This document shows positions 1,765-55,608 of a stretch of 64,000 nucleotides of DNA, piece by piece. Under the pieces are notes generated by a model. That model ran no database searches. It was not told the origin of the DNA and saw nothing but the letters and a program-made list of their open reading frames with translations. This DNA is from Eledone cirrhosa (taxonomy: Eukaryota): the NCBI GenBank assembly GCA_964016885.1, contig OZ024743.1, positions 48,236,001 to 48,300,000 of the forward strand. Reading direction: 5' to 3'. Each line of letters opens with the position of its first letter. Within the stretch, counting starts at the first letter, position 1. The translations under genes were made by a program, and so were the position numbers.

Positions 1765-3570
1765 TCATCATCATCATCATCAACGTTTAACGTCCGTGTT
1801 CCACGCTTGCATGGGTTTGGACGGGGGTAGTCCCACTTGAGGCAAGAGTGATTGTCTTGCTCGCATAGGACTGTCTGGCAGCTTTTCTACAGTTGGATGC
1901 CCTTCCTAACACCAACCACATTTACAGTGTGGGTCTGGGAGGTTTTTACCGTGTTGCCTACACGGCCACATTACAGCGTGGACTGTGTGTTTTTTTGTCG
2001 TGACACCTACACGATCTCATTTGTTTCGGCCTGGATGGCGCGGCACCAACATAACTTTACATAGGATGGGGTGGTGTGGATGGGTGGGGGTGGTGGCGGG
2101 ACGGGGTGTATTTTGTTAGAGATGCCTACTGGCAAGGCGGGTCTTCTCTGTTACTGAGTACCGCCAAAGGTCTCGGTCCAGTGACATTGTCTTGGAGAGG
2201 TGTAAGTGTGTGAGGTCGGAGTTTATCAGCTCGTCCCAGGTTTTTCTAGGTCTGCCTATTCCGTGGCTACCGTCTATCTTTATTGCCCTGCACTTTGTTA
2301 TACAGCTATCGACTTTCATGCGCATCACGTGTCCATACCAACGTAGCCTTCTCTCGAGTAAACAACATCTGATCCCTCTTATCTCTAATTTTTTCCTTAG
2401 TTCGTTTATGCTTTGCCGTTCACATATATTACTGTTACACATCCAGCGGAGCATGCAAGCTTCGTTCCTCTCTAGTCTGCGTATATCCTCTGCACACAAT
2501 GCCCAGGTCTCACTGCCATGCAACATTGCTGTTCGTATGCAGGCATCGTACAACCTGCTTTCATTTTTAGGGAGAACCCTTTAGCAGTTAATAGTGGTAT
2601 AAGCTCTCTGAACTTTTTCCAACCAGTTCTGACTCTAGCTACTGTACTTTCAGAGCACCCTCCTCCACTGCTGATTTTATCGCCCAGGTAACGGAAGCTG
2701 TCCACTATTTCTATAGAACCCTCTGCGCAATTGAAAGAGCTAGTATTTTGTGGGCACTTGCTGCTACTTATTGCACCAGAGCACCGGCCACATGTAAAAT
2801 CTATGTTCTTAGTTAGCTTACCTGTGATCCCACTACATCTTTTATGCACCCATACTTTGCATTTAGGACATAAAATGGAGTTTCTACTTACGCCTTTCCT
2901 ACACACCGAGCACGACCATTTCCCAGAAGGGACCGCCGCCTTATTTTCTTTCCTACAAACTAGAACTTTAGTCTTAGCCAGGTTAATTTTAAGTCCTTTT
3001 GATTCTAGGCCGTGCTTCCATGTTTGGAATTTCTTCTCTAGCTCGGCCATTGATTCCGCTATGAGTGTCAGGTCGTCTGCGTATAGGAGTTCCCATGGGC
3101 AGCCGGTCTTGAACTCCTCTGTTATAGCCTGAAGGGCAATAATAAATAGTAGGGGGCTGAGAACAGAGCCCTGATGGACGCCAACTTTTACGCTAAACTC
3201 TTCACTATATTCGTTGTTAATTCTAACCTTGCTGACTGTTTCTTTATACATGGCTTGTATAGCCCTCACAAGCCATTCGTCAACGCCTAGTTTTCTAAGA
3301 GCCCACCAGATAATGGAGCGGGGGACTCTGTCGAAGGCTTTCTCCAAGTCGACAAAAGCTAAGTAGAGGGGTTTACCTTTAGCTAGGTACTTCTCCTGTA
3401 GTTGTCGCACAATGAAAAGAGTGTCTGTGGTACTTTTGCCTGACACAAACCCGAACTGCATTTCATCTAGGTCAATTGTCTCTCTGATTAGTTGCGCTAT
3501 TACTTTTTCCGTGACCTTCATGACCTGGTCGATTAATTTAATGCCTCTATAGTTACTCCTATCTAGGGCG
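1765..3570 (-). mobile_element. 5'-truncated RTE LINE (family A) with full 3'UTR
   Basis: Begins at [11 protein letters not shown] directly against (TA)n. 3'UTR carries GGTGTTAGGAAGGGCATCC and ends GGACGTTAAACGT(TGA)n. Confidence 0.93.
2116..3570 (-). pseudogene. RTE ORF2 reverse transcriptase, PHD-like finger and C-terminus (one frameshift near 2560)
   Basis: Motifs [34 protein letters not shown]. Continues into ORF 2116-2553. Confidence 0.92.
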
Positions 3571-4088
<518 letters not shown>

Positions 4089-14785: not shown

Positions 14786-17378
14786 TTTCTATTTATCTAT
14801 TTATATTTTTCTATTTGTTTGTTTATTTATTTATTTATTGTTGGTTGGTTGTTTGTTCTATGTGTGTGTGTGTTTTCATTTTGTCTTGTGTGTGTTTTCA
14901 TTTTGTGTGTGTTTTCGATTGTAAGTTGTTTGTTCTATGTGTGTGTGTGTTTTCATTTTGTCCTTAATTGTAAGTTGTGATGTTGCTGTTTCCACTCATA
15001 TTTTCTATTTAATTTTGGTTTTAATTCTTTTATGCTTACTGCCTCTGTAATTTGCCTAAACATTGCGTCTTTCTTGTGTGTGGATTCTATTTTTATTTCT
15101 ATGCTCTCTAATTTACCCCTGTGTTCTATCTTAGCATGTTGGTAGAGCACAGATGATTCTTTACTATCTTGGAGGTCTCGCCAGTGTTCATTTATTCGTT
15201 CCCCTATACTACGAGCTGTCTCACCTATGTACACTACATTTTTGTTTCTACATTGTCCTTCAGTACATCTTATGCTATATACTACATTTCTAGTTTTACA
15301 GTTAATATGGGGGGCTTATTTTACAGGTTATACATTTCTTATCTATACATGAGGGTCTTTGGAACGGGTATGTCTTGCTAATAAGTGTTTTTACGGAGGT
15401 ACCAGGTCTTTCTACTATCTTAATATTGAGATTATGTTTCTTTAGGGCCCTTCTAAATTTGTAGGCTAGTTCGCCTCTAGGGGTTGTATTGATGAACATT
15501 ACACTCTGGTATTTATTGCTATCATACCATGAGTTTATTCTATTGGCCTTGTTCTTAGTTCTTTCTATTCTATTCCAAAATTTGCTCCTATACAAGGGGC
15601 AGGTCCATTTATGTCATTATTTACCATTTTTTCCCATTTGGTTCTGGCTCCTTTATACACTCTGATTCTATCTCTCTGATTGTAGCCAGAGAACTGCATA
15701 CGGTGGATGAAGTGTTGTATGTGTCTCTCTAGTTCTTCGGGGTTGCACATGCGGGACACATTTCTCATCACCCGTACCAAATCCGCAATCAGTATGTTGA
15801 TTTTGGTATGGTCCGAAATGGCCGAGTTTCGGTGGATCAGATGTTTGGAAGTCATGGGTTTGGCATAATGGGAATGGAGGATTTGTTTTTGGTTGTTAAT
15901 AGTATCTAACCAGAGCTCTGTGTCTAGTACAGGTAATCGATGGTTGGGGTGTCTACTTGTGTAGTCTATAGTAACTCTAATGCTCTGGTGGATGGAGTTT
16001 GCTATTTGCTGGATGCTTTCCATTGTGTTTTTTCTCTAGTTCCTGACTGTTCTTTAGTGGGGGTGTCTTAACTACGATGTTTATATCATCTACGTAGCGG
16101 GAGTACATTATCAGGGTTAAGCTGTCTTCTAATTGTTCATTAAGTTTTTGTTTAAGTCTACTGTCCCACCATACCATGAATAAGTTAGCTATGTCGCCTG
16201 CAATGCTAAACACCAATGGCTGCTCCTTCCTCTTGGGCATATGTTTTACCATTAAATTTGAACATATGTTCCTTAAGGGTTAGTTTTATGCTGGCCCCTA
16301 CCGCATGTGCAATCATTTTCTTCAGTTCATCGTGGTTTTCGGGTGTCCGTATGGCTCTGGTCCACCCGTTCCATCTATCTGTGTGGGTGTTTCTTGGCCA
16401 TTGAGGTAATGGTAGGTGGTCTGCCTCTTGACTGGTCTTGTAGGGCACAGGGTTGCTAAGGTCATAAGTGTCTAGGTAACTATTACTATGGGTAAGCTTA
16501 AGTAGAAGTCCCAGCTCACTGGTATCAATCCCACGGAACACAACCTTGCTCTCGCTGATCATTTCGACGCATTTCTCTACAGCAAAATCCACGTCAATAG
16601 ATGGATACAGGGACACAACATCCATACTGCCTATTATGCAGTTTGTTAGGTCCCCAGATCGGTTACCCGCGCCGATTCTGCTGAGGAGGTCCTCCGTGCT
16701 GTCACACACATCTGGGGGACATCTCAATGATGGGCGCGTATGATCAGGGAGAGGAAGTAGGACAGTCTGTAGTTACTAGCAATGTTAGCCCCACAGACTG
16801 GCCGTGTTGGTGGTCCCGCGACAGGGTCCCAGCCCGTTTTATGGTCTTTACGAAGCCCATACAACGCCGGCACGTCATTGTTCCAGGCCTGGAAGTTGTT
16901 GGCAGTCCTTTTGTTGGGCTGCATTATATTTGTCCACATCACCATATGGGCATTGAGGGTTTTTTCTCTATCCTCATGCTCCTGTGGTGTTACCTCTCTT
17001 GTGTTAGTGATGTGGGGTTGCATTGCCTGGATGTAGTTTGGCAGGCTGTCAACCGACATTCTGCCAGACTTGTCTGTTGGAAAGCATGCTATCTCTCCAT
17101 TACGCGAGCGCTGCATGAGCTTACGCAAGCCATTTGCAGATTCTTCTCCCAGTTGCTGGGCCTCTATTCTATTATGCTTCTTGCTATACTGTTCTATAAT
17201 ATTTCTAAGTTCGGATTTAGCTATACTAAATTGTGCCTCTGTTTGTTCATCGACCTGCGACGGCAACTGCGTGCGTTTGTTAAATGGCAAAGTCGTGGCG
17301 TGGACTCGTCGTAGGTCGAATGATTTATCGGAGGGGTTATAAAACGGAGAGTTCCAGGCTGCTGCTTTATGTGTACTA
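14786..17378 (-). mobile_element. Penelope-like element 1: RT plus C-terminal GIY-YIG, 5'-truncated, frameshifted (Neptune/Nematis-like linker)
   Basis: Consecutive ORF pieces give DKSG, LRKDHK, SMDVVSLYPS, GAAIG, RYVDD, LPVLD, HYAKP, linker CIDKKCITC, YIGETARSIGERINEH, HAKIEH, RQITEA, LNRK. Confidence 0.9.
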
Positions 17379-18078
17379 GTGCTCTACCAACATGCTAAGA
17401 TAGAACACAGGGGTAAATTAGAGAGCATAGAAATAAAAATAGAATCCACACACAAGAAAGACGCAATGTTTAGGCAAATTACAGAGGCAGTAAGCATAAA
17501 AGAATTAAAACCAAAATTAAATAGAAAATATGAGTGGAACAGCAACATCACAACTTACAATTAAGGACAAAATGAAAACACACACACACATAGAACAAAC
17601 AACTTACAATCGAAAAACACACACAAAATGAAAACACACACAAGACAAAATGAAAACACACACACACATAGAACAAACAACCAACCAACAATAAATAAAT
17701 AAATAAACAAACAAATAGAAAAATATAAATAGATAAATAGAAAAATGAACACAAACACACACAGACACCCGGAATGTGGCGCATGCGCAAACTGAGCACG
17801 CAACCCACACACAAACAAAATGGCGTAGGATAGAAGAAAGGAAAGACACAGAAACGAAGAACGAAATCCCCAGTCACTGAAGAGGTCACAGAGTGTGTGA
17901 CGAAAGAACTATGACTATATATATATATAAACAACTATCTGGTTGTGGAACCAACCAACCAACCAGAAATTTATAAATTTGTAAATTTATAAATATTTAA
18001 TAAATTAAATTGAAGTGAAAGCAACTGGGTGCGTGTGTTTCTTATTGGCAACATGACCCTCCCAAAGTATAACAACAA
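17379..18078 (+). repeat. Inverted pseudo-LTR of PLE 1
   Basis: 17379-17743 is the reverse complement of 14786-15150 (ORF end and 3'UTR). It continues through a hammerhead motif into (TA)n. Confidence 0.9.
17872..17916 (+). ncRNA. Minimal type I hammerhead ribozyme
   Basis: AGTCA-CTGAAGA-G-GTCACA(GAGTG)TGTGAC-GAAA-GAAC-TA-TGACT, on the PLE sense strand. Confidence 0.82.
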
Positions 18079-22860: not shown

Positions 22861-22909
22861 TAAAACTGCACTATCCACGAGTGTTTTTTACCTTCATATC
22901 ATGTCTTCC

Positions 22910-22980
22910 TATTTTATCTGATGAAAACACAAATATTATTGCATGATGATATTTGTTTTTGAAATGCGCATAATAAAATA
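22910..22980 (+). ncRNA. Type I hammerhead ribozyme in a solo pLTR-like fragment (~22880-23105)
   Basis: TATTTTAT-CTGATGA-[AAACACAAATATTATT GCAT GATGATATTTGTTTTT]-GAAA-TGCGCA-TA-ATAAAATA. 8-bp stem I, palindrome ATGCGCAT. Confidence 0.88.
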
Positions 22981-23103
22981 CATGGAACTCTTTTAACCAT
23001 CTTTTGTTCTTATATATAATGTATACTCCAGTCCTACAAACTGTAGAGTGCTTCTTATCCGATATCTGCATTGCTTTATTGTACTACAATAAAACTCACC
23101 TCC

Positions 23104-27041: not shown

Positions 27042-27518
27042 ATGCATCATTGATACACTTACTCAAAATGACCTCCCACTACCTAATTTTTCTATATCTA
27101 TATTTATATATGTATCTATCTCTATTTCCTCTCTCTATATATATATATATATCTCTTTCGGTCTCTTTACATGAAGCTCTTCGCTTTATCTATTTTTCCA
27201 TCTCTCTATTTTGTCCCATGCATTTCTTCTTTTTCTTCTTTTTCTTTTTCTTCCTTTTCTTCGTTTCGTCTTTCTTTCTTTCTTATTTCCCTCTTTTCTC
27301 TCTCTCTTTCTTTCTCTCTGTATTTTCACTGCTAGAGTGAACCTCTTCAAATGAAGTTGATGTTTATTACGGTATGTCGAATATATTTATCTATAAAACT
27401 GTTTATATTGTATTTTGTCTGATGAAGGCATAGCATATTGTTAATATGATATCCCCGAAATATATATAATGAAATAAATATGGTTTTATAAATATAGTTT
27501 TCCATTTATTTAATATTG

Positions 27519-27638: not shown

Positions 27639-27782
27639 AAGATAGACATAGAATATTCGAAAATATTCTGTATGTTTATAATAAACATTGTGAAGACCTA
27701 ATCGCTATAGAATAGAATACGTCACGTATTACAATTAGATTCTCGATAAAAGCAAGGGAAGTAACCTACGCGTTTCATTCTT
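24211..27782 (+). mobile_element. Penelope-like element 2 (ORF, ~1.9-kb 3'UTR, pLTR)
   Basis: ORF above, AT-rich 3'UTR with (TTTTTA)n and (TAAA)n, hammerhead, terminal repeat. Both ends lie in (TA)n. Confidence 0.88.
27411..27476 (+). ncRNA. Type I hammerhead ribozyme of PLE 2
   Basis: TATTTTGT-CTGATGA-[AGGCATAGCATATT GTT AATATGATATCCCC]-GAAA-TATATA-TA-ATGAAATA. Palindrome ATATATAT. Confidence 0.85.
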
Positions 27783-27809
27783 ATATGTATATATATATAT
27801 ATATGTATG

Positions 27810-27858
<49 letters not shown>

Positions 27859-27867
27859 ATATATATA

Positions 27868-28160
<293 letters not shown>

Positions 28161-28165
28161 ATATA

Positions 28166-28197
<32 letters not shown>

Positions 28198-28248
28198 AAA
28201 TATTAAACAAATAATGAACAAACAATTCCTTATATTAAACAAAAAAAG

Positions 28249-28403
28249 TTCATTATTTAACGATCGTTTCTAGGATATATATGTGTTATAATTGGTATGC
28301 ATATTCAACAGATCTATGTACAAAATTATACAAAATTATACAAATTATCAAGATTAAATATACATACCAAACACATATATACGCCGTCTTCAGAAATAAT
28401 GAA
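28249..28403 (-). ncRNA. Hammerhead ribozyme with long stem II (PLE 3 sense strand)
   Basis: Reverse complement of 37558-37712. Confidence 0.78.
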
Positions 28404-29217
28404 GTATATTTATTGATAATAACAACAATTCAAAATTTCAGTTCAAAATTGACCAATGAAAACATAAAGGGTTAAATGCAGTTCGGTGTGTGTATATACA
28501 TGTAAAACCCTTACACATATTTTACAAAAATGTATGTATAATTTGTATACGCATACTAAAATGATGGATGCAAATACGAAATTTCAAGGTTAATGTCTCT
28601 GTGAGCTTACCATATGCAGATAAGATACTTATGAAATCAAGTATATAAATATATTTTTTTTCATACTCACACATATCAGTACAATCACACATACACGCGC
28701 GTATATGCATAAATATACACATAACCAAGAACATACAAACACACACACACCCCCACTCACATTTATATATGTGGATATAAAATCATAAGCAAATGGATAT
28801 TAATACACTCACATAAAACACTGGCACACACATTTCTAGATCAAGATACAGAAATTAGGTGGGAGGGGGGGGGGGAGGGGTCAGTATTCAACTGTCTGAG
28901 CAAACTGTCTAATATAAATGTATCTATAAATTAAGAAAAATAAAAAAATAAAACAATAAAATATAATAAATATAATATAATATACATACACATACAGATA
29001 TATACACATACATACATGTATGCACACATAGAAATATTTACGCATACACACATACACACATACATATACAGTCATACACACACATACACTTACACAAACA
29101 TACACATACACATATATAAAGATATATATATACACACACACACACACACGCAACACATACACACATACACATATATATAAAAATAAATAATAAAGATATA
29201 TATCTATATATATATAT

Positions 29218-29276
<59 letters not shown>

Positions 29277-29361
29277 CACACACATACATCTAAATATACA
29301 TACACATACATACCCACATACATGTACATACATGTACATACATATACGCACATCGATATAC

Positions 29362-29392
<31 letters not shown>

Positions 29393-29859
29393 CACACACA
29401 TAGACATGTAGATACATACACACACAACTTACATACACACATATATATATACATGTATATTCATACATAGAATTAGATATATAATCATACATACTTATGC
29501 ACTTACTTATACTCATATATACAAATACATACGCATCTATATATGCATATATACATAAGAGAAACTACAACCTCATCTAACTCAGACATACAAATAAAAA
29601 TAATAATAAAAAGGCATATGTATATACATACACACACGCATTAATAGAGATATATATATAGAGACACATACATACACATATATATATACCTATATATATA
29701 TATACACTTATATATATATATATATATATACATATATATACACACACATACATTCATACATATATATATATATATATATACACATAGATATCCACACACT
29801 CATACCACCATAAATACACATACAAACACCCACATATACATACATATATATATACACAC

Positions 29860-29904
<45 letters not shown>

Positions 29905-30167
29905 TAAAAAACAGACATGCACATATATATATACATTAATTACACTTATATATACACATATTATAAACACGTACACAACCTCCCTTATACATACATACAC
30001 ATAAGTTATATTATAATAATAAAGAATAATATATATATATATATATATATAAATATATATATATATACATATATATACATACATACATACACACATATAC
30101 ATACATACAAACATATACATACATAAATACACACATACTAATAAAGACATATATTCACACATAGACA

Positions 30168-30225
<58 letters not shown>

Positions 30226-31335
30226 TACACACACATATACACAGACACATATACACACTCACATATATATATATATGTGTGTGTGCGCACACACACATAT
30301 GTACACCCACACACACAAATACACATAAACACATACATATGCATACAAGCACACACACACATACATATATCACATAGATACGAAGATAAACATATAAATA
30401 GAGAGACATACATATATATACACAACACACATACATACACATACATACACACGCACATACATATACATATATATATACATATATATATTCCTATATATAC
30501 ATGCATACACATACACACACATATATACACATACATACACATATACGTATACACATTCACATACACATACATATATAATGCATATATACACATATATACA
30601 TACATATACAACCTCATATATACACACGCAATCTTACATTCATATTTGCATGCGCATATATGTATTTTTATATTTAGATATAAATACCCAAACCTATATA
30701 GACACCTACCTACATATATATTCATACATAGACGCTTACAAATACAGATGATAATAGTATGGGGGAAAGGGGGGGTTTGGAGAAGGGGATCAAAGTAAAT
30801 ATATGTTTCAAGAAACATAGAAAATTTTCCGTATTTTTATCCAATGTATGTTCTTACATATTTTCAGTGTTAGGAAATACTATGCATCTCAAAATAAATA
30901 AGTATATCATTAATCATATGTTAACTAAACCAAAGATAGTCAACATATTGATTTCTAAGGTGTAAATTAGTTAGGTTTATAATATTTGAAGCAGAATTTT
31001 GAAGTCAAACAGTAGTAGATTATTAATTACAGTATAACTAAATTAAAGTTAATAACGTTATGGTATCAATATTAGGAAATGAATTTAGTAATAGGGAAAA
31101 AAATAAAATAAAGTATTACATCGGTAGTAGAATATAAATTATATGTTAACTAAATTAAAAATTATATATTTATTTCAATAGTATATGTTAATTAGGTATA
31201 CAATACATAAAGCAGATACTGTATTTCATCAATAGCATAATATAATTATATGCAAATAGAAATCAAAATTAATACGCATACATATACATATACATACACT
31301 TACACATATACATACATATACACACACACATATAT

Positions 31336-31388
<53 letters not shown>

Positions 31389-31941
31389 TACATACACATG
31401 CACATACACACACACACATACACGTATACATATACATATCTTTTTCAAAAAAAAAAAAAAAAAAAAAAAAAATAATAATTGCATAGAATATATTAACTAG
31501 GTATAAATCCAAAACGCATCCCATTCTATGATTACATGACATTCTGCAATTCGTCTGTATGAGGATACTAATTTTAAGCAAATTAAAATTAAAATTTAAA
31601 ATTTTTAGGTTGATTAAAACTAAAACCAAATAATAAATATATTTCTAAAATGTATATTAATTAGGTCTATAATACTAAAAATTATTTCTCTGTCATTGGA
31701 TACACGATATTATTTTGTTATATTTTATCTGTAAAAGAGTTATAATAAAAGGTTTAAATAAATTAAAATTAATCTATAAATTAAATTACTAAGTATATAT
31801 TAGTAATATTTAAAGGTTTTTCACAATTTATGATTACATAATATTTTATATTCTCATCTGTAATAAAATATTAATTAAATTAAATTTATAGGTTAACTAA
31901 CATTTAAATTAAATTATATATTAATTTCTAAAATAATGTTA

Positions 31942-34374
31942 TTAATTAGGTTTATAATATTTAAATGTTTTTTTTAGTTTATGATTACACGATATAATTA
32001 ATTCCTGTCGTTTATTTAATAAGATATCCTTAGACTTCATTATTTCAAATAGTTCTTGGGAACATAATCTACATTCATTTCTATTATTTTGATAAGGGGT
32101 GGCTCTTTTGAGCACACTCCAGGTCAAATCATATTTTATATTCTTATTTTTATAACTATTGATTTTTTCTGCTAGAGATGTTGTATTAGCCAGTGCGGCA
32201 TTTTTAAAACTATGCTTGTGGGTATTAAACCTTGTCTTAAAATTGTTAGAGGTAGCTCCTATATATGAGCAAATAGAATCTTTAGTTTTAACATTACATT
32301 TATAGACTATGTTGTTAACAAGACAATTCCCTTTTAATGGGCAGTTTGCTTTGTTTCTACAGTTACATCCTTTCGTTAATTCTGTATTTGAGGAGATATT
32401 ATGGTTAATTTGATGTACTGGTGGTATACTTATGGTTTTCTTACATTTATATGTATTATATGCACTTATATTTTGTTTTATGTTATTTGTTGTAGAGTAT
32501 GAGAATTTAACTGTAGACCTATTTAAGATTTGATGGTATTTGTGGTTTGGCGGGAAGTTTTTCTCAAGGATATAAAAAAATTTTTTAGCAATATTATCCT
32601 TAACTTGTAAATTAAAAGGAGCATTATACCAAGTAACCCGTCTATTACGGTTTCTATGTTGTTTATTATTTTTATAGGTTGTATCCTGATTTTTACTAGG
32701 AGGATTAATGTTAATGATCACACCACAACTATTTTTAGTTATATTTGTAGATTTAGGTGTTTTATCTTTTTTATTAGGAGTTTTATTATTAATATTTATT
32801 ATAGTTGTATGATGAGTAGTTTTTTGAGAGTTACTATACTTTATATTAGAAGATTTAGTATTTTGGGGTATAGTGTGGGTGGCATTTAGGTGTGTACTTT
32901 TCATTTGGTGTTTGTTGGTAATATTATGTTGTATGCTTTCAGTATTTTTAGTAGAAGGTATATACTCTAATCTATTTTTGTGGCCACTTCTATCTAGAGC
33001 TTCGTTATAGAAGGTCGCATTTTTATCAAATACATCTTGGTTAGAAGAAAGGTTAGAAATTCTAAGTGATATATTATATGCAAGGTTTTTAAGGATAGAT
33101 TTAGGGTGATTAGATTGTGAGTGTATGTAATGTAAGTTTTGGTTAGGTTTATGGTAAGGTTGGTAGATACCCGTAGCTAAATCTAAAGTTATATCTAGGA
33201 AATTTACTACTTTACTTGTTTTTTCAAAAGTAATATTAAGATTATAATAGTCTTTAAGGAAAGTTCTAATATGTTTTTTGTTTTTTTCGATTTCTGAAAG
33301 GCTAAGGTTGTTAGAAAGAAGAAGACAGTCATCACGATATAAACCACCTTTGAGGTGGGGAAAAGAGGCATTTATGTTGAAAAGGAGAAAGAGGCCCACA
33401 AGATCAGTAATTTGGGCGGAATCGCTTGAACCCATAGTAATATCAAAAAGATTACTGTATGTGTTTCTGGTCCAGTATTCATTCTGAAATTCAATAAGTG
33501 TTAGTCTAGCATGTGTAATAATGTTAATGTCATCCAAAGTTAAATTAGATCTATTTTTAGCAAATATCAATGCTTTGTTCAGGAGTATAGGTGATATAGA
33601 AGAATAGTAATTATCTATATCAAATTGTAGGAAAGAAGCAGAAGATTTACACCTAATATTTTTAAACCAGTTAATTACCTGGGAGGTGTTTTCCCAGAGT
33701 GGTAAAATAACGTGTTTTCTTATTTGTGGGATGACTCTATCTAAAATTTTTTTGCTAATTATTCCAATATCTGATTTGGAGGGACATATAAGTCTAATAG
33801 AAGGATTTGAGTTAAAGTTAGATTTGTGATCTTTCAGGTTGAAGTGTGGTCTTTTCAATGCCAAAGGTTCAGTTCTATCTTCAATGTTTAGTTTTTTTAC
33901 TATGTTGTGTGTTTTGTTGTTGATGTTGGTGAGTGACACATTATTAGATTTTTTATAATTTTTTCTGAGTTCTTTATATATGAACTCGTTATAATGTTCA
34001 ATATCCATATGATACAAATTACCAGTTTTGTCCGAGTGGACATGGATTTTTTTAGACTTTTTTAGGTCCAATAGGGTAGAATCAAGGTCCTTTTGAAAGA
34101 CGGATTTATACTTTTTAAATTTGAGGTGTTTAATTAAATTAAAAAGGTCTTTCTCGAAGTCTTCAAGTAAAAAGTTATGTGGTGGATTCTTGTAAGTATT
34201 GAAATCATACATATATTTCCGATCTGCTTGTTTAGATTTTCTATCGAAGTGGTAGGCTCTCCATCTAACCCTTCTGATAAAATTATTAGTTTTCTGAATC
34301 ATAAGGAGTAAGAAGTCGTCCTTAGAAGGTATTGGTATGTTTTTCAAGGAGGTTCCTAAATATTGTTTTTCCAT
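31942..34374 (-). CDS. Apparently full-length PLE RT/GIY-YIG protein (810 aa from ATG, Hydra-clade-like)
   Basis: MEKQYLGTSLKNIPIPS, RVRWRA, SDKTGN, LKDHK, RLICPSKS, QFDIDNYYSSI, FDITMGS, GLYRDD, CNCRNKANCPLKGNC, IVYKC...YIG..FKTRFNTH, CRLC...KRQE...CNH. Uninterrupted. Confidence 0.93.
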   Translation of the reverse strand: MEKQYLGTSLKNIPIPSKDDFLLLMIQKTNNFIRRVRWRAYHFDRKSKQADRKYMYDFNTYKNPPHNFLLEDFEKDLFNLIKHLKFKKYKSVFQKDLDSTLLDLKKSKKIHVHSDKTGNLYHMDIEHYNEFIYKELRKNYKKSNNVSLTNINNKTHNIVKKLNIEDRTEPLALKRPHFNLKDHKSNFNSNPSIRLICPSKSDIGIISKKILDRVIPQIRKHVILPLWENTSQVINWFKNIRCKSSASFLQFDIDNYYSSISPILLNKALIFAKNRSNLTLDDINIITHARLTLIEFQNEYWTRNTYSNLFDITMGSSDSAQITDLVGLFLLFNINASFPHLKGGLYRDDCLLLSNNLSLSEIEKNKKHIRTFLKDYYNLNITFEKTSKVVNFLDITLDLATGIYQPYHKPNQNLHYIHSQSNHPKSILKNLAYNISLRISNLSSNQDVFDKNATFYNEALDRSGHKNRLEYIPSTKNTESIQHNITNKHQMKSTHLNATHTIPQNTKSSNIKYSNSQKTTHHTTIININNKTPNKKDKTPKSTNITKNSCGVIININPPSKNQDTTYKNNKQHRNRNRRVTWYNAPFNLQVKDNIAKKFFYILEKNFPPNHKYHQILNRSTVKFSYSTTNNIKQNISAYNTYKCKKTISIPPVHQINHNISSNTELTKGCNCRNKANCPLKGNCLVNNIVYKCNVKTKDSICSYIGATSNNFKTRFNTHKHSFKNAALANTTSLAEKINSYKNKNIKYDLTWSVLKRATPYQNNRNECRLCSQELFEIMKSKDILLNKRQELIISCNHKLKKTFKYYKPN

Positions 34375-34438
34375 TGTGATATGGATGATGGACAATTGAA
34401 AGAGCTCAACTAAATGTATATGGGTTTACAAAATCATA

Positions 34439-34563
34439 TATACCTAGTTAATATATTCTATGCAATTATTATTTTTTTTTTTTTTTTTTTTTTGAAAAAG
34501 ATATGTATATGTATACGTGTATGTGTATGTGTGTGTGTGTGTGTGTATGTGCATGTGTATGTA

Positions 34564-34614
<51 letters not shown>

Positions 34615-35740
34615 ATATATGTGTGTGTGTATATGTATGTATATGTGTAAGTGTATGTATATGTATATGTATGCGTATTAATTTTGATTTCTATTTGCAT
34701 ATAATTATATTATGCTATTGATGAAATACAGTATCTGCTTTATGTATTGTATACCTAATTAACATATACTATTGAAATAAATATATAATTTTTAATTTAG
34801 TTAACATATAATTTATATTCTACTACCGATGTAATACTTTATTTTATTTTTTTCCCTATTACTAAATTCATTTCCTAATATTGATACCATAACGTTATTA
34901 ACTTTAATTTAGTTATACTGTAATTAATAATCTACTACTGTTTGACTTCAAAATTCTGCTTCAAATATTATAAACCTAACTAATTTACACCTTAGAAATC
35001 AATATGTTGACTATCTTTGGTTTAGTTAACATATGATTAATGATATACTTATTTATTTTGAGATGCATAGTATTTCCTAACACTGAAAATATGTAAGAAC
35101 ATACATTGGATAAAAATACGGAAAATTTTCTATGTTTCTTGAAACATATATTTACTTTGATCCCCTTCTCCAAACCCCCCCTTTCCCCCATACTATTATC
35201 ATCTGTATTTGTAAGCGTCTATGTATGAATATATATGTAGGTAGGTGTCTATATAGGTTTGGGTATTTATATCTAAATATAAAAATACATATATGCGCAT
35301 GCAAATATGAATGTAAGATTGCGTGTGTATATATGAGGTTGTATATGTATGTATATATGTGTATATATGCATTATATATGTATGTGTATGTGAATGTGTA
35401 TACGTATATGTGTATGTATGTGTATATATGTGTGTGTATGTGTATGCATGTATATATAGGAATATATATATGTATATATATATGTATATGTATGTGCGTG
35501 TGTATGTATGTGTATGTATGTGTGTTGTGTATATATATGTATGTCTCTCTATTTATATGTTTATCTTCGTATCTATGTGATATATGTATGTGTGTGTGTG
35601 TGCTTGTATGCATATGTATGTGTTTATGTGTATTTGTGTGTGTGGGTGTACATATGTGTGTGTGCGCACACACACATATATATATATATGTGAGTGTGTA
35701 TATGTGTCTGTGTATATGTGTGTGTATATATGTGTATATA

Positions 35741-35790
<50 letters not shown>

Positions 35791-35902
35791 TGTCTATGTG
35801 TGAATATATGTCTTTATTAGTATGTGTGTATTTATGTATGTATATGTTTGTATGTATGTATATGTGTGTATGTATGTATGTATATATATGTATATATATA
35901 TA

Positions 35903-35939
<37 letters not shown>

Positions 35940-36059
35940 CTTTATTATTATAATATAACTTATGTGTATGTATGTATAAGGGAGGTTGTGTACGTGTTTA
36001 TAATATGTGTATATATAAGTGTAATTAATGTATATATATATGTGCATGTCTGTTTTTTA

Positions 36060-36102
<43 letters not shown>

Positions 36103-36571
36103 GTGTGTATATATATATGTATGTATATGTGGGTGTTTGTATGTGTATTTATGGTGGTATGAGTGTGTGGATATCTATGTGTATATATATATATATATAT
36201 ATATGTATGAATGTATGTGTGTGTATATATATGTATATATATATATATATATATAAGTGTATATATATATATAGGTATATATATATGTGTATGTATGTGT
36301 CTCTATATATATATCTCTATTAATGCGTGTGTGTATGTATATACATATGCCTTTTTATTATTATTTTTATTTGTATGTCTGAGTTAGATGAGGTTGTAGT
36401 TTCTCTTATGTATATATGCATATATAGATGCGTATGTATTTGTATATATGAGTATAAGTAAGTGCATAAGTATGTATGATTATATATCTAATTCTATGTA
36501 TGAATATACATGTATATATATATGTGTGTATGTAAGTTGTGTGTGTATGTATCTACATGTCTATGTGTGTG

Positions 36572-36602
<31 letters not shown>

Positions 36603-36687
36603 GTATATCGATGTGCGTATATGTATGTACATGTATGTACATGTATGTGGGTATGTATGTGTATGTATATTTAGATGTATGTGTGTG

Positions 36688-36750
<63 letters not shown>

Positions 36751-37900
36751 ATATATATATATAGATATATATCTTTATTATTTATTTTTATATATATGTG
36801 TATGTGTGTATGTGTTGCGTGTGTGTGTGTGTGTATATATATATCTTTATATATGTGTATGTGTATGTTTGTGTAAGTGTATGTGTGTGTATGACTGTAT
36901 ATGTATGTGTGTATGTGTGTATGCGTAAATATTTCTATGTGTGCATACATGTATGTATGTGTATATATCTGTATGTGTATGTATATTATATTATATTTAT
37001 TATATTTTATTGTTTTATTTTTTTATTTTTCTTAATTTATAGATACATTTATATTAGACAGTTTGCTCAGACAGTTGAATACTGACCCCTCCCCCCCCTC
37101 CCACCTAATTTCTGTATCTTGATCTAGAAATGTGTGTGCCAGTGTTTTATGTGAGTGTATTAATATCCATTTGCTTATGATTTTATATCCACATATATAA
37201 ATGTGAGTGGGGGTGTGTGTGTGTTTGTATGTTCTTGGTTATGTGTATATTTATGCATATACGCGCGTGTATGTGTGATTGTACTGATATGTGTGAGTAT
37301 GAAAAAATATATTTATATACTTGATTTCATAAGTATCTTATCTGCATATGGTAAGCTCACAGAGACATTAACCTTGAAATTTCGTATTTGCATCCATCAT
37401 TTTAGTATGCGTATACAAATTATACATACATTTTTGTAAAATATGTGTAAGGGTTTTACATGTATATACACACACCGAACTGCATTTAACCCTTTATGTT
37501 TTCATTGGTCAATTTTGAACTGAAATTTTGAATTGTTGTTATTATCAATAAATATACTTCATTATTTCTGAAGACGGCGTATATATGTGTTTGGTATGTA
37601 TATTTAATCTTGATAATTTGTATAATTTTGTATAATTTTGTACATAGATCTGTTGAATATGCATACCAATTATAACACATATATATCCTAGAAACGATCG
37701 TTAAATAATGAACTTTTTTTGTTTAATATAAGGAATTGTTTGTTCATTATTTGTTTAATATTTTATCTTGACTCTGTATACCGTTTATCTTTCACCGAAA
37801 GTCGTTTTTCATTGCATCTCTTCTTTCCATGATATCCGGAATACATTGAGTTCTTCATACGGATTGGACACTACCGTAAACTCTTGGTAGATTTATCTAC
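34439..37900 (+). repeat. Inverted copy of the PLE 3 3'UTR/pLTR plus a 134-bp extension
   Basis: 34439-37766 mirrors 28195-31505, differing mainly in microsatellite and homopolymer lengths. 37767-37900 is unique. Confidence 0.93.
37558..37712 (+). ncRNA. Type I hammerhead ribozyme with a 116-nt stem II
   Basis: TTCATTATTT-CTGAAGA-[37575-37690]-GAAA-CGATCG-TT-AAATAATGAA. 10-bp stem I, palindrome ACGATCGT. Confidence 0.8.
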
Positions 37901-37980
37901 ATATATATATATATATGTATATATATAAAATATTAAACAAATAATGAATAAACAATTCCTTATATTAAACAAAAAAAGTT

Positions 37981-38129
37981 CATTATTTAACGATCGTTTC
38001 TAGGATATATATGTGTTAGAATTGGTATGCATATTCAACAGATCTATGTACAAAATTATACAAAATTATACAAATTATCAAGATTAAATATACATACCAA
38101 CACATATATACGCCGTCTTCAGAAATAAT
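37981..38129 (-). ncRNA. Third copy of the long-stem-II hammerhead
   Basis: Same sequence, truncated within the 5' strand of stem I. Confidence 0.75.
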
Positions 38130-40172
<2,043 letters not shown>

Positions 40173-41128
40173 AAAATCAGTAGTGGGGGAGGGTGCTCTG
40201 CAAGTACTGTAGGTAGAGTCAGAACTGGTTGGAAAAAGTTCAGAGAGCTTATACCACTATTAGCTGCTAAAGGGTTCTCCCTACAAATGAAAGGCAGGTT
40301 GTACGATGCCTGCATACGAACAGCAATGCTGCATGGCAGTGAGACCTGGGCATTGTGTGCAGAGGATATACGCAGACTAGAGAGGAACGAAGCTTGCATG
40401 CTCCGCTGGATGTGTAACAGTAATATACGTGAACGGCAAAGCATAAACGAACTAAGGAAAAAATTAGAGATAAGAGGGATCAGATGTTGTTTACTCGAGA
40501 GAAGGCTACGTTGGTATGGACACGTGATGCGCATGAAAGTCGATAGCTGTATAACAAAGTGCAGGGCAATAAAGATAGACGGTAGCCACGGAATAGGCAG
40601 ACCTAGAAAAACCTGGGACGAGCTGATAAACTCCGACATCACACACTTACACCTCTCCAAGACAATGTCACTGGACCGAGACCTTTGGCGGTACTCAGTA
40701 ACAGAGAAGACCCGCCTTACCTAAATATATAGTAAAACCTACTCCAACCAGTAGGCATCTCTAACAAAATACACCCCGTCCCACCACCACCACCCCCACC
40801 CCATCCACACCACCCCGTTCTATGTAAAGTTATGTTGGTGCCGCGCCATAGGCCGAAACAAATGAGATCGTGTAGGTGTCACGACAAAAAAAACACACAG
40901 TCCACGCTGTAATGTGGCCGTGTAGGCAACACGGTAAAAACCTCCCAGACCCACACTGTAAATGTGGTTGGTGTTAGGAAGGGCATCCAACTGTAGAAAA
41001 CCTGCCAGACAGTCCTATGCGAGCAAGACAATCACTCTTGCCTCAAGTGGGACTACCCCCGTCCAAACCCATGCAAGCGTGGAACACGGACGTTAAACGT
41101 TGATGATGATGATGATGATGATGATGAT
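40173..41128 (+). mobile_element. 5'-truncated RTE LINE (family A)
   Basis: KISSGGGC...KTRLT* (stop at 40724), full 3'UTR and (TGA)n tail. Both ends in (TA)n. Confidence 0.93.
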
Positions 41129-54362: not shown

Positions 54363-55570
54363 CATCATCATCATCGTTTTACGTCCGTTCTTCCATGCTA
54401 GCATGAGTTGTCCTGTTGTGGGCAGTGTCTGGTCGGCTGACCATGCCTTGCTCATACAGGAACTGATTTTGGCTTGATTTCTACAGCTGGATGCCCTTCC
54501 TAACACCAACCTCATTTACAGTGAGTGCTGGGTGCTTTTTCCGTGGCGCCTACAGATCCACTTTACAGTGTGGGCTGGGTGCTTTTTTGCCTGGCACCTC
54601 CACGACCACCTTGCAGTGGGAGGGTGTGGGGGCATATTGTCTATATGCTTCGGCTTGTACCCATGGGAGGTCGGGTACTCTGTATTACTGCGTGACGCCA
54701 GAAGTCACGGTCGTGTGTCATCGCCTTTGAGAGGTGTAATTGGGTAAGGTCGACTTTTATCATCTCAGGTCTTCTTGGGTCTCCCCACTCCGCGGTTTCC
54801 ATTGACTTCTAGTGCTCTGCACCTTTTTATGCAGCTGTCATCCTTCATACGCATCACATGTCCATACCAAAACAACCACCTCTCCTGCACACAGCATTTG
54901 ATTCCTCTTATGCTCAGTCTCTCTCTCAATTCATTTATGCTTTGTCGTTTGCGTATATTACTATTACACATCCATCGGAGCATGCAGGCTTCGTTTCTTT
55001 CTAATCTACGAAAGTCTTCCACCTTCAGCACCCAGGTCTCACTACCATGTAACATTGCTGTTCGGATACACGCATCATACAGTCTGCCTTTCATTTTGAG
55101 GGAGAAGCCTTTTGCAGCTAGCAGTGGCACTAGTTCCCTGAACTTCTTCCATCCCGTTCTTACCCTAGTTATTGTACTTTCTGAACACCCACCTCCACTG
55201 CTAATTCGGTCACCTAGGTAGCAGAAGCTGTCTACTGTTTCTACAGAGCCCTCTCAGAGATTGGTGGTACTTGTTTTCTCTGTCTGTTTGCTGTCCCAGC
55301 ACAGCTGCTACATGTGAAGCCTACATTCTTAATTAAGCTTCCTGAGATCCTGCTACATCTCTTGTGTACCCATTGTTTGCATTTGGGGCAGAGAATGGAG
55401 TTCCTACCTACACCTTTCCTACATACTGAGCAAGGCCATTTCCCTGAGGGGATCTGGGTTCTGTTTTCTCGTCTACTTACAAGGACCTTAGTCTTTGTCG
55501 TGTTGACTTTGAGACCCTTTCTTTCTAGTCCCTGCTTCCAAGTTTGGAATTTCTTCTCTAGTTCTACCAT
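54361..55570 (-). mobile_element. 5'-truncated RTE LINE family B
   Basis: ORFs 55241-55570 (PHD-like) and 54765-55130, 3'UTR and (ATG)n tail. Both ends at (TA)n. Confidence 0.92.
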
Positions 55571-55577
55571 ATATATG

Positions 55578-55608
<31 letters not shown>

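What the first reader, a model, noticed from the sequence alone, without database searches (positions are those of the whole stretch)
28195..37900. Intact 810-aa PLE inside a ~3.3-kb inverted repeat: candidate active element
Seen: an uninterrupted ORF with RT, a CxCx5Cx5C linker, GIY-YIG and CxxC..CxH end. The arms 28195-31505 and 34439-37766 differ almost only in repeat lengths. Known: these motifs and (TA)n bias fit my recollection of the Hydra clade of C-terminal EN+ PLEs, and inverted 5' pLTRs are typical of PLEs but usually much shorter. Inference: a recent insertion of a possibly active family with an unusually long duplicated 3'UTR.
Basis: partly seen in the sequence, partly recalled or inferred. 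Interest (0 to 1): 0.75.

Follow-up and report, generated by a model that had tools for sequence, protein, structure and literature searches.

The report
Young oversized Hydra-type Penelope retroelement copy
This is one recent copy of a young, abundant jumping-gene family (a Hydra-type Penelope-like retroelement, more than twice the usual length), inserted in the known two-armed shape; its protein gene is intact, but it has lost its front end and is likely a dead-end copy rather than a source.

Summary
Observation confirmed: an uninterrupted 810-aa ORF with telomerase-like RT fold, CxCx5Cx5C linker and GIY-YIG end, between arms 28195-31505 and 34439-37766 that differ only in repeat lengths. 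It carries the Hydra-clade protein motifs. It belongs to a young family: 31 of 40 scored full-ORF hits are 99% identical, 28 of 33 ORFs read are intact, and dN/dS is 0.15. The family unit is 6.48 kb with a 3.75-kb microsatellite-rich 3' UTR, whereas published Hydra elements are about 2-3 kb.

The long arm is ordinary here: 15 of 22 sister arms are longer. The right arm runs on into a 137-nt 'tail' that the left end lacks; 21 of 22 two-armed loci have exactly one tail, which argues against a fold-back artefact. This copy lacks about 229 nt of leader and the upstream pLTR, and its private markers occur nowhere else in the assembly, so it is likely a dead-end product. Tandem copies are better source candidates.

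Long reads, RNA and a labelled RT tree were not available. The scan has noted Hydra PLEs and the one-tail rule before on other DNA of this genome.

The parts
28195..34438 (-). Main copy of the PLE unit, 5'-truncated inside the leader (starts at about unit position 230 of 6477)
34375..34438 (-). Remaining 64 nt of the 5' leader (about 290 nt in complete copies)
31942..34374 (-). Single ORF, 810 aa (813 aa in its closest sisters; one 9-nt repeat unit, KNN, is absent)
32965..34047 (-). Reverse transcriptase core and thumb (about residues 110-470; DKT, FD, MG, YRDD); borders approximate
32668..32937 (-). N/T/K-rich insert (residues 480-569), low pLDDT, absent from most homologs; holds the 9-nt indel
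32323..32367 (-). CxCx5Cx5C linker (residues 670-684)
31981..32310 (-). GIY-YIG endonuclease with CxxC-E and N-CxH end, no conserved CCHH (residues 689-798)
   Evidence: (Pfam GIY-YIG E=0.008, below the curated cut-off)
28195..31941 (-). 3' UTR, 3747 nt, about 45% in TA/TG-type repeats and T runs; part of the family unit
28249..28403 (-). Type I hammerhead-like motif: 10-bp stem I, CUGAAGA and GAAA cores, very long stem II hairpin, palindromic stem III; cleavage untested
   Evidence: no Rfam match
28195..31505 (-). Arm A (distal 3.3 kb of the 3' UTR); ends without tail and joins (TA)n
34439..37766 (+). Arm B: inverted, 5'-truncated copy of the distal 3' UTR (hammerhead-like motif at 37558-37712)
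37767..37903 (+). Tail: first 137 nt of the leader, present on arm B only; holds one TTTCAC(C/G)GAAA motif at 37790-37800
27782..28194 (.). (TA)n target, left flank
37904..37924 (.). Short (TA)n, right flank
37925..38130 (-). Separate 206-bp 3'-end fragment of the same family with other alleles (98.5% to the arms); likely an independent insertion

Best explanation
This is a recent, two-armed insertion into a (TA)n run of a young Hydra-type Penelope-like retroelement family with a 6.5-kb unit, likely written in one event from one template, and likely unable to act as a source itself. Shown: intact RT-linker-GIY-YIG ORF; hundreds of leader-bearing and thousands of truncated sister ends; two fixed end points 137 nt apart, one per arm; arms identical outside repeats and sharing alleles that other copies lack. 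Inferred, by analogy with Poseidon_Ac (PMC11167929): the protein binds an RNA that reads through one unit into the next leader, nicks both strands of (TA)n and starts reverse transcription at two internal sites, the tail being the stretch between them. The two cDNAs stop at different points (here after 6.24 kb and after 3.45 kb) and are joined head to head. Arm length is then simply where the second cDNA stopped, and the arm is all non-coding because the UTR is 3.75 kb. Inferred: the UTR is long because it is full of the element's own (TA)n target and collects repeat expansions and nested insertions that are copied along. Inferred: this copy lacks the pLTR/leader that holds the promoter in studied PLEs, and the downstream leader needed as a start signal; tandem copies are the likelier sources.
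For: Fold: AlphaFold2 mean pLDDT 85.7; the top 8 PDB matches are telomerase RTs. Hydra motifs as listed in PMC8557442 section 11 and suppl. Fig. S7. Family: 40 scored full-ORF hits, 31 at 99% and 9 at 96-97%; 28 of 33 ORFs read uninterrupted (best-scoring hits, so biased to intact); mean pairwise distance 0.42% among 30 young copies and dN/dS 0.14-0.15 between subfamilies. Exact-pattern counts: 6259 tail ends, 1957 tail-less ends, 305 read-through leaders, 262 ATG-proximal leaders. Architecture: 23 of 31 loci have an anchored inverted arm; of 22 with both outer ends read, 21 have exactly one tail. On the first 70 Mb of C1, 16 of 20 tail-less ends have a back-to-back tail end within 15 kb (random mean 0.19, maximum 3 in 2000 draws). 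One template: a 2-nt allele occurs twice in the genome, once in each arm here; the C7 locus carries one nested insertion in all three UTR copies. Dead end.
Against: No RT tree with labelled clade references was built; Hydra membership rests on motif comparison by eye. No long read or contig spans the inversion junction in the six runs laid (uninformative for a private insertion). The promoter and start signals of this family are not mapped; their loss is an analogy. Exceptions to the one-tail rule exist: L029 has no tail on either arm, one tail-tail pair lies among 100 listed tail ends, and by eye two tail-less pairs lie among the 100 ends listed. Shared private alleles could also come from gene conversion or from copying the first cDNA. 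Absence of offspring is shown for one assembly only.
Confidence: 0.85

Rival explanations
1. This very copy is an active source element, transcribed from a promoter in the retained 64 nt, in the inverted arm or in the host flank.
For: All catalytic residues are intact; the 3-aa loss lies in a disordered insert and gives the length of the older subfamily; 6 of 31 loci start inside the leader, one (L039) at nearly the same position.
Against: No upstream pLTR; no read-through into a next leader at its 3' end; its ORF marker occurs once and its UTR marker only in its two arms. A read-through RNA would fold into a 3.3-kb duplex (inference).
Confidence: 0.12
2. The inverted arm is a fold-back read or assembly artefact.
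For: Arms differ only at repeat lengths, as consensus errors would; no independent read spans the junction.
Against: A 2.9-kb unique spacer separates the arms; only one arm has the 137-nt tail, which has no mirror image on the other side; the flanks differ; the same asymmetric design with other break points occurs in 21 of 22 loci; the nearest assembly gap is 13 kb away.
Confidence: 0.03
3. The second arm was made at the DNA level (self-priming or template switch on the first cDNA), or the arms were homogenised afterwards by gene conversion, rather than both being copied from the RNA.
For: Arms share alleles absent from the rest of the assembly. Over 18 two-armed loci, 51 alleles are shared by both arms and absent from the other sampled loci, against 30 arm-specific differences in 40.6 kb (three loci dropped because the minus-strand piece was a separate insertion). 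Self-priming was proposed in PMC3846280.
Against: Copying a tail-less first cDNA cannot produce the tail found on arm B, so it needs the tailed strand to be made first and longest, whereas either arm can carry the tail. 'Private' is relative to 28 sampled loci only, and source copies may be missing from this assembly.
Confidence: 0.2

Closest known systems
Hydra clade of C-terminal EN+ Penelope-like elements, e.g. Hydra-1_Obim, Hydra-1_Ajap, Penelope-13_HM (Craig et al. 2021, PMC8557442; read: abstract, sections 11 and 12, passages, supplement parts 2 and 58 and search hits)
   Same: Single ORF RT-linker-GIY-YIG; RW(K/R), DKT, FD-x-x-MG-x-x-D-x-A, YRDD, CxCx5C, CxxC and CxH around E and N; no CCHH; hammerhead core near the 3' end; (TA)n targets; an inverted 5'-truncated copy is listed for Penelope-13_HM (966 nt).
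   Different: Unit 6.48 kb against 1.1-3.0 kb for the 27 listed families; 3.75-kb microsatellite-rich 3' UTR; about 90-aa N/T/K-rich insert; hammerhead stem II of about 118 nt; its hammerhead sequence differs from that listed for Hydra-1_Obim, so it is another family.
Poseidon_Ac in vitro mechanism (Frangieh et al. 2024, PMC11167929; read: parts 1-2 of 4)
   Same: AT-rich targets, two fixed ends with the tail between them, tandem units.
   Different: Other clade; tail 137 nt here against 30-40 bp; here the tail lies wholly in the non-coding leader; no biochemistry for this family.
Adineta vaga Penelope elements (Arkhipova et al. 2013, PMC3846280; read: passages)
   Same: Inverted pLTR with a one-sided tail; N-rich inserts inside the ORF; long spacers between ORF and 3' pLTR.
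   Different: There the spacers (0.9-1.5 kb) differ between copies and are ascribed to host capture; here one 3.75-kb UTR is shared by the family and arms reach several kb.

Membership tests
EN+ Penelope-like elements | Telomerase-related RT in a single ORF | tested here: met
   Top 8 fold matches are TERTs; RT aspartates invariant. Pfam alone found no RT.
EN+ Penelope-like elements | GIY-YIG endonuclease | tested here: met
   Weak Pfam hit E=0.008, below cut-off; Y, Y-G, R, H invariant in 74 of 74 rows, E in 73 and N in 72.
EN+ Penelope-like elements | Partial tandem and inverted pLTR structures with a one-sided tail | tested here: met
   tail is 137 nt, not 30-40 bp.
Hydra clade | C-terminal EN, RWK and DKT motifs | tested here: met
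   RWR at 37-39 (K in 39, R in 26 of 74 rows), DKT at 115-117.
Hydra clade | CxCx5C linker; CxxC and CxH flanking E and N | tested here: met
   compared by eye with suppl. Fig. S7.
Hydra clade | CCHH motif absent | tested here: met
   C693 and C702 are not conserved in homologs and the second His is missing.
Hydra clade | Canonical hammerhead ribozyme | tested here: inconclusive
   Cores and stem I present, but stem II is about 118 nt, Rfam gives no match, the MFE fold does not show the junction, and cleavage is untested.
Hydra clade | Insertion into (TA)n | tested here: met
   Both flanks here; thousands of ends followed by TA (the patterns required TA).
Hydra clade | Generally short (<3 kb); descriptive rather than diagnostic | tested here: not met
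   Unit 6477 bp against at most 3045 bp in the published list.
Hydra clade | RT groups with Hydra in a phylogeny | not tested
   Labelled reference proteins were seen only as supplement text; homologs carry no clade names.
Naiad/Chlamys | N-terminal EN | tested here: not met
   EN is C-terminal.
Active source element | Complete leader/pLTR, transcript and offspring | tested here: not met
   Leader truncated and no offspring in this assembly; transcription not testable.

The most novel reading that the evidence does not exclude
A currently active Hydra-clade family whose 3' UTR has more than doubled the element by filling with its own (TA)n target, so that it ferries nested insertions and seeds new target arrays, and whose two arms are written from one RNA at two start sites 137 nt apart, each marked by a TTTCAC(C/G)GAAA motif. 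Its many intact, near-identical copies would make it a ready substrate for the first in vitro test of a Hydra PLE and of how two-armed PLE insertions form.
Probability: 0.4. Interest if true: 0.55.

Novelty: new member of a known kind. Interest (0 to 1): 0.35.

Why it matters
How PLEs make inverted arms and one-sided tails is still open. This family offers dozens of intact, near-identical ORFs and a long, easily scored tail, so it is good material for a biochemical test in the most divergent PLE clade. It also shows that Hydra elements need not be short, which matters for repeat annotation, since nearly half of the UTR looks like simple repeat. The single locus itself is an ordinary product of the family.

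Tried and rejected
Pfam on the whole ORF found nothing useful; the PDB sequence search gave only weak RT hits. Rfam over 22-42 kb returned microsatellite-driven miRNA matches below threshold and no hammerhead on 28200-28460. No RNA holder was listed, which is no evidence on expression. Contigs and RAD reads of six runs showed family members but nothing spanning this junction, which is uninformative for a single insertion. The idea that 37767-37903 is foreign or LINE DNA was rejected: it is the leader. The idea that this copy belongs to the older 810-aa subfamily was rejected: it is sister to the 813-aa C14 copy and 81-85 substitutions from the older ones. The idea that arm B is a later insertion into the leader of a full copy was rejected: no sense-strand leader lies beyond it and both arms share private alleles. 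The broken CCHH-type PLE at 15-17.4 kb shows no BLASTP similarity in the piece compared. The twin motif after the two ends did not fold alike in a quick MFE test. The bioRxiv retrozyme paper (part 1 of 5) was not used. No complex prediction was run. Four literature searches showed no description of a Hydra element of this length; subscription papers and Repbase are not covered.
Full report
Observation. The minus strand holds an 810-aa ORF at 31942-34374 without stops. Self-comparison finds arms 28195-31508 and 34436-37766 at 98.6% with 1 mismatch and 12 gap openings. A global alignment resolves this to 0 substitutions and 12 indels, all in homopolymer or dinucleotide runs. The inversion junction is blunt at 34438|34439. 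The only assembly gap in the window (200 N) lies 13 kb away.

Protein. Pfam found nothing on the whole ORF and a weak GIY-YIG hit on the C-terminal 152 aa (E=0.008, below cut-off). A search returned 118 homologs, nearly all unnamed; 73 were aligned with the query. The model is confident (mean pLDDT 85.7) except residues 480-569 and 653-665, and its top 8 PDB matches are telomerase RTs. The RT aspartates, three of the four linker cysteines (the fourth in 71 rows) and the GIY-YIG Y, Y-G, R, H are present in all 74 rows. The features that Craig et al. 2021 list for Hydra (section 11) are present: RWR for RWK, DKT, CxCx5C, CxxC and CxH around E and N, no conserved CCHH. By eye the ORF is colinear with Hydra-1_Obim and unlike the Penelope, Nematis and Neptune rows of suppl. 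Fig. S7. A tree with labelled references was not built. Residues 480-569 are an N/T/K-rich insert absent from most homologs; such inserts are described in rotifer Penelopes.

Family. The genome holds at least 40 full-ORF matches, 31 at 99% and 9 at 96-97% (only 40 candidates scored). I fetched 30 loci covering 33 of the 39 other hits; the six left out are from the older group. Of 33 ORFs read from the ATG motif, 28 are uninterrupted (24 of 813 aa, 4 of 810 aa) and 5 are broken; one copy (L023) was missed because its motif differs. The 30 young copies differ by 0.42% on average, and dN/dS against the older group is 0.14-0.15. The window copy is sister to the C14 copy, 5-6 substitutions from its nearest relatives, and has lost one unit of a 9-nt repeat inside the disordered insert. 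The unit is 6477 bp: about 290 nt leader, ORF, 3.74 kb 3' UTR. The published Hydra list ranges up to 2729 bp for complete families and 3045 bp with an inverted piece. So the long UTR is part of the element. About 45% of it is TA/TG-type repeat. It collects nested insertions: in C7 one is carried by all three UTR copies, in C3_215045000 and L034 by one only. I infer that self-targeting explains its length.

Ends and arms. The 137 nt beyond arm B (37767-37903) are the start of the leader, the 'tail' of the PLE literature, which is 30-40 bp in described elements. Exact patterns count 6259 tail ends, 1957 tail-less ends, 305 read-through leaders and 262 ATG-proximal leaders (exact matches miss variants and may include the older group). 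Of 31 loci, 23 have an anchored inverted arm (L038 is probably a 24th). Both outer ends were read in 22, and 21 have exactly one tail, on either arm. The exception, L029, has no tail and near-identical flanks on both sides, as a DNA-level or artefactual fold-back would. Independently, 16 of the 20 tail-less ends listed in the first 70 Mb of C1 have a back-to-back tail end within 15 kb (random mean 0.19); a few same-type pairs exist. Of 22 sister arms, measured from the inner break to the unit end, 15 are longer than this one (median 4.3 kb); these loci were chosen for a full ORF, and truncated insertions often have arms of a few hundred bases. The arm is therefore ordinary for the family and hard to explain as a read artefact, although no read spans the junction in the runs laid.

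Mechanism. Frangieh et al. 2024 showed for Poseidon_Ac that both target strands are cut and extended, that reverse transcription starts at two internal RNA sites, and that the tail is the stretch between them. The data here fit one event with two starts. Both arms share three alleles absent from the other sampled loci, and the marker covering two of them occurs genome-wide only in these two arms. Over 18 two-armed loci there are 30 arm-specific differences in 40.6 kb (0.07%, three loci dropped as separate insertions), so these insertions are very young unless gene conversion has levelled them. A motif TTTCAC(C/G)GAAA follows each of the two end points. Earlier notes of this scan proposed twin signals of this kind; I saw the motif but did not test its role, and the two copies did not fold alike. 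A hammerhead-like motif lies 64 nt before the tail-less end, with a long stem II; Rfam does not recognise it and cleavage is untested.

Is this copy active? Twenty-five of 31 loci have the whole leader preceded by a direct 3'-end piece; this one keeps 64 nt. In Penelope and Chlamys-3_cRei the start site lies in the pLTR (passage). Its main copy also ends in (TA)n without the next leader, which by analogy carries the start signals. Its ORF marker occurs once in the genome. I read it as a coding-intact dead end; tandem arrays such as L023, L035, C2_47000000 and C3_215045000 have the structure expected of sources. No RNA run was listed, so expression is unknown.

Verdict. Real, recent and well explained: a new, unusually large family of a known clade in a known insertion shape. 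Recently active Penelope-like insertions are already reported for an octopus genome (passage); the host here is called octopus in earlier notes, which I did not test. The scan has described Hydra PLEs, long-stem hammerheads and the two fixed ends before on other pieces of this genome; a search by sequence and by place found no note on this stretch. Interest 0.35.

Noticed in passing
window 24210-about 27520 (+): A second Hydra-like PLE family, 5'-truncated, with 565 open codons (49% and 41% identical to the focal ORF in two blocks) and a 1.6-kb 3' UTR with hammerhead-core-like letters near 27418 (by eye; my stem-I scan did not flag it). It lies tail to tail with the focal element.
   Followed up: partly
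window 23655 and 27636 (+): The same 150-bp piece occurs twice, each time between (TA)n runs; it may be the 3' end of a third TA-targeting element on the minus strand.
   Followed up: no
window 14956-17383 (-): A frame-broken PLE with a CCHH-type GIY-YIG end, i.e. a canonical clade; no BLASTP similarity to the focal ORF in the piece compared.
   Followed up: partly
window 22906-22985 (+): Another CTGATGA...GAAA core with a possible stem I just before a (TA)n run.
   Followed up: no
L029 with L049 and L069 (G000:C6:36.84 Mb): Two-armed copy without a tail, whose flanks on both sides are near-identical mirror images: a DNA-level palindrome or assembly fold-back.
   Followed up: partly
L011-L012, L013-L014, L034, L028: Nested insertions in the UTR's TA runs. 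Three end in a shared GGCAGCCA-type motif with an ACTC...GAG hairpin; the C7 and C3 insertions are the same repeat in what looks like the same TA run, with different 5' truncation.
   Followed up: partly
L033, L034, L037: Main copies start at unit positions 111-118, just inside the tail, two of them with short tandem duplications at the junction; this may mark an RNA 5' end or an RT pause.
   Followed up: no
window 32661 (runs X1, X4, X6, X17): The 9-nt duplication typical of the young subfamily is listed in X4, X6 and X17 but not in X1; subfamily make-up may differ between samples, but contigs cannot show absence.
   Followed up: no
window 40100-40724 (+), 467-1416, 2119-3821 and 54768-55597 (-): Fragments that look like an RTE-type LINE reverse transcriptase end (label recalled, not tested).
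   Followed up: no
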